In this document: piece by piece, positions 33,940 through 63,774 of the stretch
Layout of the letters: each line of letters starts with the position of its first letter
How positions within the stretch are numbered: position 1 is the first letter of the stretch
DNA from: Octopus sinensis
Taxonomy: Eukaryota
Direction of reading: 5' to 3'
Length of the DNA stretch: 64,000 bases
NCBI RefSeq assembly: GCF_006345805.1
Contig: NC_043014.1
Coordinates: 19,840,001 to 19,904,000, forward strand
Notes under the pieces: generated by a model
Database searches by the model: none
Told to the model about the DNA's origin: nothing
What the model saw: only the letters and a program-made list of their open reading frames with translations
Program-made: the position numbers and the translations under genes

Positions 33940-38203
<4,264 letters not shown>

Positions 38204-40112: not shown

Positions 40113-40612
40113 ATAAGAAGGAAAACAATCAGCCTCAAATCTCTGAGCGAGAAGTAAACAGTAACTGTACTACAGAGTAAAATCTATTTGCCAACATGAA
40201 TTGACAGTCCTGCTTAGGACGATGTTACTACCCTTTTTAGCCGCAGGAAAACATCTTTTCCAGCTGGCTACCGACGCACAACTGCGCCCGTATACCTCGA
40301 ACAAGGGAGCTAATGTCCCCACTCAAACTTAAACGGTACCTGCGGACCATTGTTTCTGAGTTATTTCTCTTCATCGGTACAGGATAATCTTGTTCGAAGT
40401 ATATACTTAGAGTGACACACAGTTACTGACCTCGTAAAGAGGAAAACAATCGGACCCAAATCTTTGAGCGAGAAGTTCTAACAGTGGTGCGTCGGTAGCC
40501 AGCTGGAAAAGATGTTTTCCTGGGGCTAAAAAAGGGTAGTAATGTTGTCCTAATTAGGACTGTCAATTCATGTTGTCAAATAGATTTTACTCTGTAGTAT
40601 TGTTACTATTTA
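40113..40612 (-). mobile_element. Non-coding hammerhead element: 321-bp monomer, terminal direct repeat and inverted partial copy
   Basis: gaaaacaatc...tgagcgagaagt at 40121 and 40442; 40485-40610 is an inverted copy of ~40160-40285. Confidence 0.85.
40339..40383 (-). ncRNA. Minimal hammerhead ribozyme (U4C variant)
   Basis: cctgta-CCGATGA-a-GAG-aaataa-CTC-a-GAAA-caatg-GTC-cgcagg. Confidence 0.65.
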
Positions 40613-42888: not shown

Positions 42889-43590
42889 TCTTTCAGTTCG
42901 ATCTTTTTTACCTGTCTTTTTGTAGCCTATTACTTTTACTTCTTCCGTCGTTATTTTTTCATTATTTTGTCAAATGTGATTTAATCAAGCCGTTTCATTT
43001 ATTCAATTGCAGTCAATAAAACCGAAGAGAATATTGTTTTCTTTAGACAAAGCATATAATGTGTGTAGGAGGATGGGAACAAAACAGGATAATTTTACCA
43101 TTATGCATCTTCCGAATATTTTTATTTTGAGAAATTGTGAAATTAATTCCACTACAAGGACTTGAAGATGTGTTTTCGCTCCATTATTTTTTCCTTTGCT
43201 GAGAGTCGAATTCTTGTCCCTCACCTATATACTAGATGCGGTGTTACATAACATAAAAAGGAAACGAATGCATCAATCACTTATACTTTTGAAATAAAAT
43301 CCAAAGACAATTTGTTGGTGTCATTAAGGTTGCTTATCGCGTGGATTTGAAAAGTATAACATTTCGTAGAACGTTTTTCCAAGTTAGCCCTGATACGTGG
43401 TTTATGGTATGCACTGCATTTCAATCGATTGAAAAACCGAGTTCCATGCATTTTTAATAACAAAATTAAACAGTTTTTTATATTCATATAATTGTTTCAA
43501 AATACGTTATTCTTATTTTCATTATATACATAGATAGAAATAATACACTTCTAAATCTTTCAGAGAGATTTATACAGTAGTGATACAAGA

Positions 43591-43793
43591 AAGTAGTTGT
43601 ATGCTGTCAACTTAATGTCACAGTCCCATGAAGAGTTAACTGGGTGGAGGTGCTTCTCTTGCCCTTGTAAACGTAAGGACACAGGAAATATGTCAAAGAT
43701 GACAGAAAGCGGTGGTGCTTCCTAGGGCTAAATAGCAGTAGTATTATTCCCTTCATGGGACTGTCACATTAAGTTGACAGCATACAATTACTT
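43591..43793. mobile_element. Fold-back element related to the 40.1 kb and 62.5 kb family, no hammerhead retained
   Basis: aagtagttgtatgctgtcaacttaatgtcacagtcccatgaag / cttcatgggactgtcacattaagttgacagcatacaattactt; shares caac..tg.cagtcc and ggggctaaa motifs. Confidence 0.8.
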
Positions 43794-43924
43794 CATTATA
43801 TACATGTTTGATTAATATAATTAGAAAACAATATTTTCCAATATATTTTTCTAAATTTTGTATTTGTTTTAATCTGCGCACGAATGTAATTATAGTCTTT
43901 TATTTGATCTCCAATCAAAAATAT

Positions 43925-44699: not shown

Positions 44700-47600
44700 A
44701 TAAGATACTGCTGTGACTACACATAAAACAATATCATTGATGATGATGGTGATGGTGATGGTGATGATGATAATGATGATGGTAATGGTGGTGATAATGA
44801 TGATAGTGATGGTAATGGTGATGATAATAACAATAATAAGCCGACTACGGCTGCTATAATGGTACGATTATAATTGTAACGGCAATGATGGCCGTCTCCC
44901 CACGAGCCAATCAAAGCTAAAAAAATGATAACATTATCGTAGCACCAAAATGTTTTTGGAAACTAAAAGGAAAACTAAATCAGTATACCGAATCGCTTGT
45001 CCTATGGTTAATCTGGAAGCGCGTCCCCCAGGGAAGAGCCAGCCTGGGATCGAAAAGTCATCAACTGGCACAAATTCTTCTCCGAATACGGACATGGATG
45101 GTCACTTGAACGGGAAATCCCCCAACTCGAGCCCTCCAAGTTCACCACCACAACCACCACAGAAAGAAAAATGTAAGCGGAACAAATGGACCCGAGAAGA
45201 GTATAAAGAAGTAATATACGCTTATTACTATGCATTAGGTAGGCCATCTCAAGAGAGACACACCGCAAACTCTTACAGTATATGGAGAACACGGAATCAA
45301 GACAGTAGGCCCTATTTGGACGAGAACAAATTAGCAAATGTGAGGAGGGATATCCTTAGAAATAACAGACTCACAGACAGTGAAATAAGCGCGATCAAGC
45401 ACGCAACGGAAAATGACATAAATATAAGACACAAAGGAAATGAAGAATCAGATGAACAGTATAGCCCACCACAAGGCTTAATTGAAAGACTGCCATCTGA
45501 CCAAAGTACGCAAAGGCCTGAAGATACAAGAAATTCTATTGTACCTGTTAAAGATAGCCAGGAAAACGAAAAAACAACAGTAACTAAAGATCTCGCATTT
45601 GCTGAAGAACACAGAGAGTCTATGGCAGAAATGAGGCAGAAAATCCTGAATACGCTTGAAGTTGTAAGACATACAAGTATGAATGATAGAGAACCACTTC
45701 ATAAACTCTCAAATACAAACCAAAATAAAAAACAAATCCAAATTGGCAACTATGTAACAATGAAATAATACGAGAATTAAAACCTGATTTTACTGAGTTA
45801 AATGAAATTATTTACGCTTCTGCTAGGGCAATTGAAACCAGCTGTATGCCCCCTAAAAAACAAAGAAAACAAAACCTGGGAAGAAATCAAACCTGGAGAA
45901 GTAAAATTGAAAAAGAGATTGAATTTATGAGAGGGGAAATATCAATATTAAATGAACTAATATGTGGAAATGATGTAAGATCCAGAACAGGAAGAAAGAT
46001 GAAGAGAAAATTTGGATCCTCACCAAGAGAAGAACTGATATCAATAAAAGAAACGCTGAAACAAAAAGTCCAAGCAAAAGCCCAAAGAATACGAAGATTT
46101 GAGAAGAGAAACAAGTTTTACAAGCAAAATAAGCTGTTCACATCCAATGCCAAAAAATTTTACAGAGAAATAGGGAAGGAGAAAGTAACCGTTAAAGACC
46201 CCCCTCCCATGGAAGAAGTTCAAAACTTTTGGAAAAGGATTTGGAGTGACAAGAAGACGTACAACATAAATGCAGACTGGATTATACAAACTGAAGGATC
46301 CTACCAAAATTTACTACAACAGGCATGGGACGACATCACAATAGCAGACCTAAGAAAGGCACTCACGAAGGCCCATAATTGGAAATCCCCCGGTAAAGAT
46401 AGGGTGCCGAATTTCGGGCTCGCATCGCTCCCATGCGCACACGGTAAGCTAGTTCAGCTCTTACGGATGCAAAGATCAACTGCTAATCAATCGTATGATC
46501 CTTGAGAACTGTCACAACAAGCGCAGAAATCTCAGCACCGCATGGATTGACTACAAAAAGGCCTTCGACAGTATACCGCATCCATGGATCTTGAGATCGC
46601 TGGACATCTTCAAAATTTCCCCTGTGATTTCAAACTTCCTGAAGCACAATATGTCGTTGTGGAATACGAATCTCCAATTATACCACTCTAATGGAGTACT
46701 TGCCTCAGAAAATATAAACATCAACTGTGGAATTTTTCAAGGTGACTCACTTTCACCTTTAATATTCTGCATAGCCCTAATACCCCTTACAAGTGAATTA
46801 AACAGAACAGGGTATGGGTATAAAATTGCTAATAAAAAAATAAGCCATCTATTTTATATGGATGACTTAAAACTTTATGGTAAAGACAATAATGAACTTG
46901 AAGGCCTATTGCGCACCGTGAAGCATTCAGCGATGACATCGGGATGGAGTTTGGACTTGAGAAGTGTGCCAAGGCCACTTTCCAGAAAGGGAAGTGAAGA
47001 CCACAAATTCAGTCGTGTTAGATGTTGACACAGTCATAAGAGAGCTTGAGCAAGAACAAACATACAAATATTTAGGGATAAATGAAGGCTCTGGTATTCA
47101 GCATGCAAGCATGAAAGAGAAAATCAGGAAGGAATGTTATAGGAGAGTTCGTGCAGTCCTAAAATCTGAACTAAATGCACGTAACAAGGTGTTAGCTATA
47201 AATTCCTTAGCAGTTCCAGTTGTTACTTATAGCTACAATGTGTTGAACTGGAATATGAGTGAAGTAAAGAATATAGATAGAAAAATACGCAAGCTGCTGA
47301 GTTGTAATAGGATGCACCACCCAAAGGCAGACGTAGATCGCCTTTACCTTCCCAGAGCCCAATGAGGTCGAGGTCTGATCCAATTTGAACTAGCTTAAAA
47401 AACAACCACAATTGGACTGGCCAAATATCTCGAAATATCGAATGACTGGATGCTAAAGCTCGTGGAAAATCACGAGAGACGAAAGAAGCTTCATTCTATC
47501 ATAAAGGAAAGCAAAAAATTTGCTATTGATCTCGTGCAGGATACCCAAACTGAACAACCCGAGGGAAGTACAGCAACTATTGTTGCAAAGAAGGTGAAAA

Positions 47601-48576
47601 TGATGGCAATGAAAAAAGCGCACGAGCAATTGGCTGATAGGTGGGAGGAGAAACCTCTGCACGGCAAATATGTGACCCGCAGCAAACAAGCTGATGTTCA
47701 CCAGAAGCAAACCCATCAGTGGCTACGGAGCTCAGGGCTAAAAGCAGAGAGCGAAGGTTTCATCCTGGCTGCTCAAGATCAAAGCCTATTAACCCGGAAC
47801 TACCAGGCCAATGTGATGAAAAATGGAGTAGACCCAAAATGCCGATTCTGCAACGACATGATTGAAAAAGTGGACCACCTAATCTCTGGATGTAAAGTCT
47901 TAGCACCAGTGGAGTATAAATTAAGACATGACAGAGTTGGCCAATATCTCCACTGGCTAATAAGTCAGCATTACAATATCAAAACTGCCGACAAGTGGTA
48001 TAATCACCACCCTGAGGCTGTAACTGAAGGTGAAAATGTAACCATTCTGTGGGACTTTCCAGTACATACAGACCGAACCATCAAGGCCAATAAACCAGAT
48101 ATTGTTGTGAAAGACCAAAACAATAAAGTTTGCTTATTGATCGACATGAGCATCCCCTGTGATCATAATATCTCAGCGAAAGAGTTTGACAAGCTCAGAA
48201 AGTATAAAGACCTACTCATTGAAATTGAGAAAATGTGGCATCTCAAGGCGGTTACAATACCAGTGATCGTAGGAGCACTAGGAATGATCAAGAAGGGAAC
48301 CGAAAATTATATGAGAATGATCCCTGGCTTACCATCCCTGCAAGAAGTGCAAAAGATTGTCTTAACTGGTACATCACACGTATTGAGAAGAGCATTGTCG
48401 ATGTGAGAACTGTTGCTGCTCATGTATTTTAATTTAACTTAAAAAAAAAAAAAAAAATGAACGAACTACTGAGTTTGGTTTAATGGCCTACCAATGTATA
48501 CTATGATTTTCTTTGCCCTAGGAGTCGGGAAGACACTCGGCAAGAAATGGAAGCAAATTTGAAAGAAGAAAAAAAA

Positions 48577-62398: not shown

Positions 62399-62638
62399 AT
62401 ATATTTACACTAAAATTTATACACACTTACATTGAAATAATCAAAAGCATAGACATAGACATACGTAATTACAGTAATGTTTTTATAGCAACAGAATGTG
62501 GAAGTCCTATAAAGGACGATGTTACTGTTGATTTAGTCCCAGGAAAATACCTTTTCAAGCTGGCTATCAAAACACAGCTTGTGTCCGCATAGCATTTCCA
62601 AGTGAGGCTACCGCTCCCACCCCTAGCCTTTCGTGATA

Positions 62639-62682
62639 CACACAGACCTAGTTTTCTAGGTGTTATCTGTCTTCAGTGTGAG
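62639..62682 (-). ncRNA. Mirror-image hammerhead, partly decayed
   Basis: ctcaca-CTGAAGA-cagataacaccta-GAAA-actagGTC-tgtg. Confidence 0.6.
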
Positions 62683-62704
62683 AAAATCACTAGCTTATGG
62701 TTGT

Positions 62705-62748
62705 CTCACGCTGAGGATGGATACCTTCTAGAAACCTAGGTCTGTGAG
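62705..62748 (+). ncRNA. Minimal type-I hammerhead, core intact
   Basis: CTCACG-CTGAGGA-TGGA-tacct-TCTA-GAAA-CCTAGGTC-TGTGAG; 6-bp stem I, palindrome ACCTAGGT, GUC site at 62740-62742. Confidence 0.8.
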
Positions 62749-63503
62749 TATCACGTAAGGCTACAGATGGAAGCGATGACTTCCCTTGCAAATGCTATAC
62801 GGACAGAAACTCTGTGTCAATAGCCAGGAGGAATAGCTGTTTTCTTGGGGTTAAAACAACAGTAACATCGTTCTTTATAGGACTGCCACATTCTGTTGGC
62901 GTATAAATATTACTATTCGGTACTATTGCTCTATTTCTCTCGCTCAGAAATTTAAAACAAGTTGTTTTACTCTATACGTAATTACAGCCATATGAAAAAT
63001 ATTTCCTTCTGAATATCAACTCACATACTCGCTCGGAATGAAGCAAAAACACATACACATATACTCACACACGCGCACTCTCACAAAGTGGCAAACACAC
63101 ACACACACACACATGCACGCACACGTACAGACACTCACACATACACATACATATTATCTGTCGCACGTATATTGTGTATGTGTTTTGCGTATTCGCATAT
63201 TCGCTGCGTCTAGCACGCTGGGAAAACTCCTTAAACGACGCCGAGTGTTTAAGACCACGGAATGTCCCAGACCAGGTGAGACAACTCGCTGGTCTGGGAC
63301 GTATATATAGATAGTGTACATTCCTTTTGCTGATGTGCAGCGGCGTAGTTCGTGGAAAGGAAACTTAAATTACGAATTAAAAGCAGCTCTCACAATGTAG
63401 ACATTATCGATCACACATATATAGCGTAGGTGTTTCGTTAATACGCCTATTTGCTGCGGATAGCGTCCTAGGAAAGTTTCGTTTCGAGGTGTTTCGACGA
63501 CAT

Positions 63504-63542
63504 GGTACCGATGAGCCACGATAATGGCGAAATTTATCATTC
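63504..63542 (+). ncRNA. Candidate hammerhead core
   Basis: CCGATGA-GCCA-cgataa-TGGC-GAAA-tttatc; perfect stem II, poor stem I. Confidence 0.4.
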
Positions 63543-63774
63543 TCGATCATTCTCATTTAACATATTTATCATTCTCGATCATTTCCTTTCGAGTTGGAGC
63601 ATTCAGAATTCCTTAACATTCAGCGTCGTGCAGGGAGCTTCTCCAGGACGCTATCCTGGAACAAATAGACGTATAATCTAAACATATACACTATGCAGAG
63701 CGACCGGATAATGTTTACATTATGAGAACTGCTTTTAATTCGTAATGTATATTGTATATATATATATATATACA

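What the first reader, a model, noticed from the sequence alone, without database searches (positions are those of the whole stretch)
62461..62987. Complete insertion: inverted copy plus direct copy, two hammerheads, 14-bp TSD
Seen: perfect TSD ATACGTAATTACAG. The direct arm has an intact hammerhead and the full 3' tail (matching 40113-40160), while the inverted arm lacks the tail and is noticeably diverged. Both arms begin just upstream of the ribozyme. Inference: a target-primed retro-insertion with inversion. A transcript from either strand would contain a ribozyme, but it could be sequestered in the long hairpin.
Basis: partly seen in the sequence, partly recalled or inferred. Interest (0 to 1): 0.75.

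Follow-up and report, generated by a model that had tools for sequence, protein, structure and literature searches.

The report
Old retrozyme copy, Penelope-style insertion
This is one old, decayed copy of a scattered 352-base non-coding repeat that carries a predicted self-cutting RNA motif, and its back-to-back arms, one-sided tail and 14-base target duplication match the known insertion pattern of Penelope-like retrotransposons, whose enzyme likely pasted it.

Summary
The anatomy is real: perfect 14-bp TSD, head-to-head arms 79% complementary, and a 59-nt tail on the direct arm only. The direct arm has an intact type I hammerhead. The inverted one keeps its core but has one broken pair in each helix. 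The unit is a dispersed, ORF-less 352-nt monomer, often tandem, so it is a likely non-LTR retrozyme; stem II covaries across copies. Copies end mostly at two fixed sites; 16 of 20 head-to-head loci have one short and one long end, but 0 of 7 in a second set. Inverted arm plus tail plus TSD is the published Penelope structure. Two refinements fail. The inverted arm is not significantly more diverged (31 vs 21 of 225 sites, p=0.18): both arms simply decayed. The junction beside the ribozyme is a local palindrome and does not recur. No editing signature, empty allele, RNA or cognate Penelope partner was shown. The scan had already noted this kind of element at least eight times on other DNA of this genome. 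Ordinary new member of a known kind.

The parts
62461..62474 (+). Left copy of 14-bp target-site duplication; its last four bases (ACAG) overlap the element's short end (family antisense ATAG), 3 of 4 matching
62471..62695 (-). Inverted arm, unit positions about 3-227 (position 1 = window 62690); ends at the short fixed site; 31 of 225 sites differ from the family majority
62638..62683 (-). Degraded type I hammerhead: core CTGAAGA, GAAA and TC intact; one broken pair each in stems I, II and III; stem III palindrome lost
62687..62695 (.). Inversion junction: about 9-nt overlap readable as either arm, inside a near-palindrome of the unit (part of extended stem I)
   Evidence: sequence
62687..62978 (+). 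Direct arm, unit positions about -2 to 286/289; ends at the long fixed site; 21 of 225 sites differ from the family majority over positions 3-227
62697..62754 (+). Type I hammerhead, core and helices intact (one of 6 of 56 such rows): stem I 62705-62710/62743-62748 with outer extension, CTGAGGA 62711-62717, stem II 62718-62730, GAAA 62731-62734, palindromic stem III, predicted cut after 62742
62917..62975 (+). 59-nt 'tail' between the two fixed end sites (positions 228-286), present on this arm only
62974..62987 (+). Right copy of TSD; its first five bases (ATACG) also match unit positions 285-289
40113..40612 (-). Second head-to-head insertion, from a diverged subfamily (about 65% to the direct arm; its own arms 116 of 127 identical); tail on the left arm
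43518..43812 (.). Third head-to-head insertion of a related subfamily, no hammerhead part, with a perfect 14-bp TSD; arms 45 of 50 identical; bounds approximate

Best explanation
This is an old copy of a protein-free 352-nt hammerhead repeat (a likely non-LTR retrozyme) that was likely pasted by a Penelope-like retrotransposon enzyme priming both strands of a staggered 14-bp cut. Shown: TSD, head-to-head arms, two fixed end sites 59 nt apart, tandem monomers elsewhere, conserved hammerhead fold, intact RT plus GIY-YIG ORFs in the genome. Inferred steps: (1) a tandem or circular unit RNA, not a cut linear monomer, was the template, because arms run through the predicted cut site and some exceed one unit; (2) the enzyme nicked both strands of AT-rich DNA about 14 bp apart; (3) one 3' end primed at the long site (position 286) and the other at the short site (227), each helped by 3-5 matching bases, since both sites end in CUAU; this would also explain the bias for TA repeats; (4) the two cDNAs joined through about 9 nt of a palindrome just upstream of the ribozyme; (5) the arms then decayed independently by about 9% and 14%. 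The copy is now likely inert: in a read-through RNA the long hairpin is predicted to suppress both hammerheads.
For: Family: 1,499 first-look candidates, 40 scored; period 352 in tandem loci; longest stop-free frame 72 codons. Ends: 16 of 20 head-to-head loci have one short and one long end, 0 have two long ends; single-orientation copies end at the short site in 11 of 24 and 6 of 12. Clean non-simple TSDs in 3 of 22 head-to-head loci vs 13 of 462 mismatched-flank controls. Opposite arms carry the same subfamily haplotype in 7 of 7 scorable loci; shared minor alleles within loci 46 vs 21.6 expected. Stem II pair 32-38 is A-U in 32, G-C in 11, G-U in 6 of 56 rows, linkage p about 1e-5. Substitutions are strand-symmetric, A>G 3.67% vs T>C 3.69%. 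Intact RT plus C-terminal GIY-YIG ORFs of 775-883 aa in G000. Published: inverted pLTR, one-sided tail, TSD and junction palindromes (PMC3846280, PMC8557442); both strands cut and extended, two internal start sites bounding the tail (PMC11167929).
Against: No cognate partner found: the unit's profile matched no Penelope terminal repeat in 30 GIY-YIG loci and 20 longer stretches; the three hits were separate retrozyme-like copies, and 4 Penelope proteins gave no tblastn hit in 67 family loci. The second locus set gave 0 of 7 short+long pairs by strict end calls (4 short+other, 2 long+other, 1 short+short). The end classes were drawn after seeing the data, and the first set is biased towards copies with a tail. 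The tail is 59 nt, against 30-40 in print. In vitro the Penelope start sites did not differ between strands and needed no target homology (PMC11167929). A perfect 14-bp TSD has only about 3% chance at 21.8% arm divergence. Cleavage, circular RNA and an empty site were not shown.
Confidence: 0.8

Rival explanations
1. Fold-back self-priming: one cDNA was made, its 3' end snapped back at the palindrome and copied itself to make the second arm, and the tail was then trimmed from one arm during resolution.
For: Here the junction is a near-palindrome with about 9 nt overlap. Arms share haplotype, 7 of 7 loci. Self-priming was proposed for Penelope inverted junctions (PMC3846280), and nuclease resolution for the tail (PMC8557442).
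Against: Both outer ends overlap the target like primers. Single-orientation copies, which have no second arm, end at the same two sites. The tail sits on the longer arm in some loci and on the shorter arm in others (piece tables). In vitro the two sites are start sites and both strands are extended.
Confidence: 0.2
2. The piece is the two terminal repeats of a heavily 5'-truncated autonomous Penelope element rather than a copy of a free retrozyme.
For: The structure is the same as inverted pLTRs with tail and TSD, and opposite-strand hammerhead pairs 100-700 bp apart from truncated elements are described (PMC4209133).
Against: Upstream of the ribozyme the sequence closes back onto the same 352-nt unit in many loci. 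No Penelope protein match in 67 loci. No long frame in the unit.
Confidence: 0.12
3. The insert is a functional ribozyme switch: the hairpin cages two ribozymes and editing or unwinding releases them.
For: The direct hammerhead is one of 6 of 56 fully intact rows. The hairpin abolishes its helices in prediction. The inverted arm has 8 of 66 A>G vs 1 of 58 T>C, the highest of 72 rows.
Against: That excess is p=0.0035 before and about 0.25 after allowing for 72 rows. Five of the 8 sites follow a G, which ADAR disfavours (recalled). No family-wide bias. Arms show no compensation: 1 shared derived site in 213. The second hammerhead is broken.
Confidence: 0.04
4. It is a fold-back DNA transposon (MITE) whose arms are terminal inverted repeats.
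For: Long inverted arms and a TSD.
Against: The two ends are unequal, junctions and lengths differ in every locus, and many copies are single or tandem.
Confidence: 0.02

Closest known systems
Metazoan non-LTR retrozymes (Cervera and de la Pena 2020, PMC7229834, passages seen; Li, Clavereau and Pollet 2026, bioRxiv 10.64898/2026.07.22.740005, parts 1-3 of 5 read)
   Same: Non-coding unit of about 350 nt, one type I hammerhead per unit, tandem copies, GC under 50%, TSD longer than 4 bp, Penelope elements present in the same genome.
   Different: The passages seen do not describe head-to-head arms or two fixed end sites ('inverted' occurs 0 times in PMC7229834). No cephalopod is named in those texts; supplements were not seen. 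Arrays here are short (up to about 2.5 units in the loci seen), and RNA circles were not shown.
Penelope-like element insertions with inverted pLTR and tail (Arkhipova et al. 2013, PMC3846280, passages; Craig et al. 2021, PMC8557442, passages)
   Same: Head-to-head 5'-truncated inverted copy, overlap or palindrome at the junction, tail on one arm at either end, TSD, microsatellite bias, hammerhead in the repeat.
   Different: No ORF; tail 59 nt vs 30-40; TSDs 13-14 bp (19 with overlap) vs 8-10 in the rotifer examples.
Poseidon element of the green anole in vitro (Frangieh et al. 2024, PMC11167929, parts 1-2 of 4 read)
   Same: Two internal start sites bounding the tail, both strands cut and extended, AT-rich targets, uncleaved RNA as template.
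   Different: There, no strand difference in start site and no target homology were seen; here genomic copies often pair one short with one long end and show 3-5 nt overlap with the target.
L1 twin priming (recalled, no call)
   Same: Inversion by priming from both target strands, with microhomology at the junction.
   Different: In L1 the two arms cover different parts of the RNA; here both arms cover the same positions 3-227, which needs a tandem or circular template, strand displacement, or two RNAs.

Membership tests
Non-LTR retrozyme | Type I hammerhead in each unit | tested here: met
   Core intact in 31 of 56 rows; stems I-III and extension paired; stem II covaries. Rfam gathering score not reached.
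Non-LTR retrozyme | Short unit (about 150-450 nt) in tandem | tested here: met
   Period 352 in L002, L003, L013, L033 and others. This locus itself holds no tandem repeat.
Non-LTR retrozyme | No protein coding, no LTR | tested here: met
   Longest stop-free frame 72 codons; no Penelope protein match in 67 loci.
Non-LTR retrozyme | Self-cleavage of the RNA | not testable with these tools
   Prediction only. In the 2026 preprint 1 of 9 predicted elements cleaved in vitro.
Non-LTR retrozyme | Accumulation of circular and linear monomer RNA | tested here: inconclusive
   Only contigs from runs guessed to be RNA were available.
Penelope-like insertion signature | Inverted 5'-truncated copy head-to-head with direct copy | tested here: met
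   This locus; 20 of 46 first-set loci and 7 of 19 second-set loci.
Penelope-like insertion signature | Optional tail at one end, bounded by two fixed sites | tested here: met
   Sites at about 227 and 286; length 59 rather than 30-40; 0 of 7 clean pairs in the second set.
Penelope-like insertion signature | Target-site duplication confirmed by an empty site | tested here: inconclusive
   TSD perfect; none of the 15 listed joints skips the insert, 329 joints not shown.
Autonomous Penelope-like element | RT plus GIY-YIG ORF | tested here: not met
   None in the insert or in the 67 family loci of about 3 kb.
Non-autonomous derivative of a named Penelope family | Homology to the terminal repeat of an autonomous partner | tested here: inconclusive
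   None in 30 GIY-YIG loci and 20 longer stretches, which cover mainly two families; other clades were not sampled.

The most novel reading that the evidence does not exclude
A Penelope enzyme pair primes both strands of one staggered cut on one retrozyme RNA (tandem or circular), with one strand assigned to the short start site and the other to the long one. The Penelope 'tail' and inverted repeat would then be a single two-site twin-priming event, guided by 3-5 bases of pairing to CUAU at both sites, which would also explain targeting of TA repeats.
Probability: 0.4. Interest if true: 0.55.

Novelty: new member of a known kind. Interest (0 to 1): 0.3.

Why it matters
The locus itself is a likely inert fossil. 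The family matters modestly. It adds a probable cephalopod retrozyme to a class known from corals, mussels and amphibians. It ties retrozymes to Penelope enzymes through insertion marks rather than sequence likeness alone. Its ORF-less 352-nt unit with two fixed ends would be a convenient minimal template for the open question of how Penelope elements make tails and inverted repeats. Younger families in the same genome, already noted by the scan, would serve that purpose better than this old one.

Tried and rejected
Rfam: 0 matches at gathering score in the window. ADAR editing before insertion: rejected family-wide; the inverted arm's A>G excess does not survive correction and sits in the wrong context. 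Two different subfamily RNAs for the two arms: not supported, haplotypes agree in 7 of 7 scorable loci; one same-direction pair (L013) and one compound locus (L053) disagreed. Junction fixed at the ribozyme: rejected, junctions are scattered. Cognate Penelope partner: not found. Empty allele: none among the joints listed; the table was swamped by flanking high-copy repeats and 329 rows were not shown. Expression: no RNA holder listed. Four runs guessed to be RNA gave 2-17 contigs each, mostly other family copies; one goes back from 62977 to 62731 with 106 letters between, which tandem DNA or a circle would both give. This is no evidence either way. Host gene context: no Pfam match for three nearby frames; not resolved. 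Rows dropped: 14 of 60 loci as duplicates, 11 of 30 as already seen, locus L036 from the alignment (internal 30-nt repeats), rows 20% or more from the majority (94 kept as core), and the two window copies from the end counts. Copy number: only 16 exact matches to a 32-nt degenerate hammerhead pattern, 0 for the reversed control, which suggests hundreds of ribozyme-bearing copies in this subfamily; not a measured number. Literature searches that found no paper on cephalopod retrozymes or on two-site head-to-head retrozyme insertion; subscription papers and supplements were not covered.

Full report
Observation. The 14-bp direct repeat is perfect at 62461-62474 and 62974-62987, and the enclosed DNA holds a 217-nt inverted repeat, 79% complementary. 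The insert folds as one long hairpin, z -21. A pattern scan of the window gave four hammerhead-like strings; two lie in this insert, one per strand. Rfam gave no match at gathering score, and the 56-nt motif alone folds no better than its shuffles, so the ribozyme call needed family evidence. Positions below are unit positions, with 1 = window 62690.

Family. A DNA search of the own genome G000 (2.72 Gb) gave 1,499 first-look candidates; the 40 scored are 80-87% identical at their best match. The inverted arm gave 989 candidates. In tandem loci the unit closes on itself with period 352. Its longest stop-free frame is 72 codons. Two more head-to-head copies of related subfamilies lie in this window, at 40113-40612 and 43531-43793; the latter has its own perfect 14-bp TSD. 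The host is probably an octopus: this is recalled from the flanking repeats and matches the earlier scan notes; it was not tested.

Ribozyme. In 56 aligned rows the core is intact in 31. Stem I pairs hold in 43 of 50 to 56 of 56 rows, and stem III pairs in 52 and 47 of 56. An outer extension of stem I holds in 39 of 48 to 47 of 49 rows. Stem II pair 32-38 is A-U in 32 rows, G-C in 11 and G-U in 6, with linkage p about 1e-5; relatedness contributes to that figure. Stem III is a short palindrome, the design described as working best in dimers (PMC4209133, part 1 of 4 read). The direct arm is one of 6 of 56 rows with core and helices intact. The inverted arm keeps the core but breaks one pair in each helix. 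Predicted pair probabilities for stems I and II fall from 0.97 and 0.84 in the direct arm alone to 0.00 in the whole insert. Cleavage is untested.

Divergence. Over positions 3-227 the direct arm differs from the family majority at 21 of 225 sites and the inverted arm at 31 of 225, p=0.18. The arms differ from each other at 21.8% and share 1 derived site in 213. Mean distance within loci (0.20, 51 pairs) is like that between loci (0.19, 3,369 pairs). Substitutions are strand-symmetric, as expected for mutation in DNA after insertion. The inverted arm has the highest A>G count of 72 rows, 8 of 66, but this is not significant after correction and 5 of the 8 follow a G. If the host is an octopus, the calibration quoted in PMC13282606 (passages; distance 0.09 about 25 My, 0.12 about 33 My) would put the insertion at roughly 25-40 My; this is an inference.

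Ends. Of 46 distinct first-set loci, 20 are head-to-head. Sixteen of these have one arm ending near 227 and the other near 260-290; none has two long ends; one compound locus has two short ends; three have an end elsewhere. Either arm can carry the tail. Single-orientation copies end at the short site in 11 of 24. A second set, fetched with the tail and linker as query, was less tidy: of 19 new loci, 7 are head-to-head and 0 of 7 give a clean short+long pair by strict end calls (4 short+other, 2 long+other, 1 short+short), while 6 of 12 single copies end at 227. The classes were set after seeing the data and the first set favours tailed copies, so the pairing rule is suggestive, not proven. 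Most ends run into TA-type microsatellites, where a TSD cannot be read. Clean TSDs were found in 3 of 22 head-to-head loci vs 13 of 462 mismatched-flank controls. At this locus the right TSD's first five bases match positions 285-289, and the left TSD's last four match the short end at 3 of 4. Both sites end in CTAT.

Junction and template. The two arms overlap by about 9 nt at 62687-62695, inside a near-palindrome of the unit. Junctions in other loci fall all over the unit, so the position next to the ribozyme is incidental. Arms pass through the predicted cut site (after 62742), and some exceed one unit (L013, L033, L004), so the template was a tandem or circular RNA, not a cut monomer (inferred). 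Opposite arms share the subfamily haplotype in 7 of 7 scorable loci, and share minor alleles 46 times against 21.6 expected. This fits one template lineage, under either twin priming or fold-back.

Partner. G000 holds many GIY-YIG frames, several in intact 775-883 aa ORFs with an RT domain, which is the Penelope layout. None of the 30 loci or 20 longer stretches examined has a terminal repeat homologous to this unit; the three hits were separate retrozyme-like copies nearby. Four proteins from these elements gave no tblastn hit in 67 family loci. The partner is therefore inferred from the signature, not identified.

Reads. Contigs from four public runs, labelled as four organisms, cross the left junction (2 runs, 0 differences), the right junction (3 runs, 0-2 differences) and the inversion junction (1 run, 4 differences). 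One of these may be the window's source. No empty allele was listed, but most joints were not shown. RNA evidence is inconclusive.

Comparison. Arkhipova et al. 2013 (PMC3846280, passages) describe the same arrangement: an inverted pLTR overlapping the direct one by 15 bp, a 31-bp tail on one of them, a 9-bp TSD and junction palindromes, and they propose self-priming. Craig et al. 2021 (PMC8557442, passages) list it as general for Penelope-like elements. Frangieh et al. 2024 (PMC11167929, parts 1-2 of 4) show that the tail lies between two internal start sites and that both strands are cut and extended. Cervera and de la Pena 2020 (PMC7229834, passages) define the retrozyme class, and a 2026 preprint (parts 1-3 of 5) derives it from Penelope repeats. 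Six searches found no paper on cephalopod retrozymes or on this two-site pattern in retrozymes; supplements were not seen and may list such motifs. The scan's own index holds 235 notes fitting the key words in this genome; all 8 shown describe this kind of element on other DNA. None was returned for this place or sequence.

Verdict. A real, complete, old insertion of a likely retrozyme with the known Penelope signature. It works like a Penelope-mobilised non-LTR retrozyme (confidence 0.8). Membership holds on sequence features; cleavage and circles are untested. New member of a known kind; interest 0.3. The two-site, strand-assigned priming model is the only part that goes beyond print (probability 0.4), and younger families would test it better.

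Noticed in passing
window 43531-43793 and 40113-40612: Two more head-to-head insertions of related subfamilies; the first has a perfect 14-bp TSD and the tail on its left arm. Three such insertions in 64 kb suggest the wider group is very abundant.
   Followed up: partly
L100 5741-6294 (G000:C13, about 21270740-21271294): A younger 360-nt tandem unit (95% between copies), weakly related to this family (E 2e-8), with a U3-A8 type hammerhead. The Penelope element beside it has a hammerhead string of the same core type and the same CATG loop at L100 5069: a candidate retrozyme-partner pair.
   Followed up: no
L093 6935-7283 and 7286-8228: A 65%-identical relative of this family sits in the TA microsatellite upstream of an intact 775-aa Penelope ORF, next to that element's own young inverted repeats (98% identical) with a hammerhead.
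   Followed up: partly
L095 1174-2610, L098, L097: The 781-aa Penelope family has a second frame of up to 479 aa upstream of and overlapping the RT frame; no Pfam family above cut-off. Penelope elements are described as single-ORF.
   Followed up: no
L003, L114, L125, L002: Four arms end at unit positions 119-130, mostly running into simple repeats: possibly a third, minor start site, or later erosion.
   Followed up: no
L036 1112-1350: About eight 30-nt tandem repeats of unit positions 204-237, spanning the short end site: repeated re-priming or later slippage.
   Followed up: no
window 63150-63730; L141 2471-2965 and 4525-4857 (minus strand): A CpG-rich non-repeat stretch just right of the insert (CpG o/e 1.25-1.6) and two exon-like minus-strand frames a few kb further on, with no Pfam match. 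The insert may lie in or just past a minus-strand gene.
   Followed up: partly
window 34313-37990 (minus) and 44932-48406 (plus): Two broken LINE-like elements with RT domain matches; not Penelope by tblastn.
   Followed up: partly
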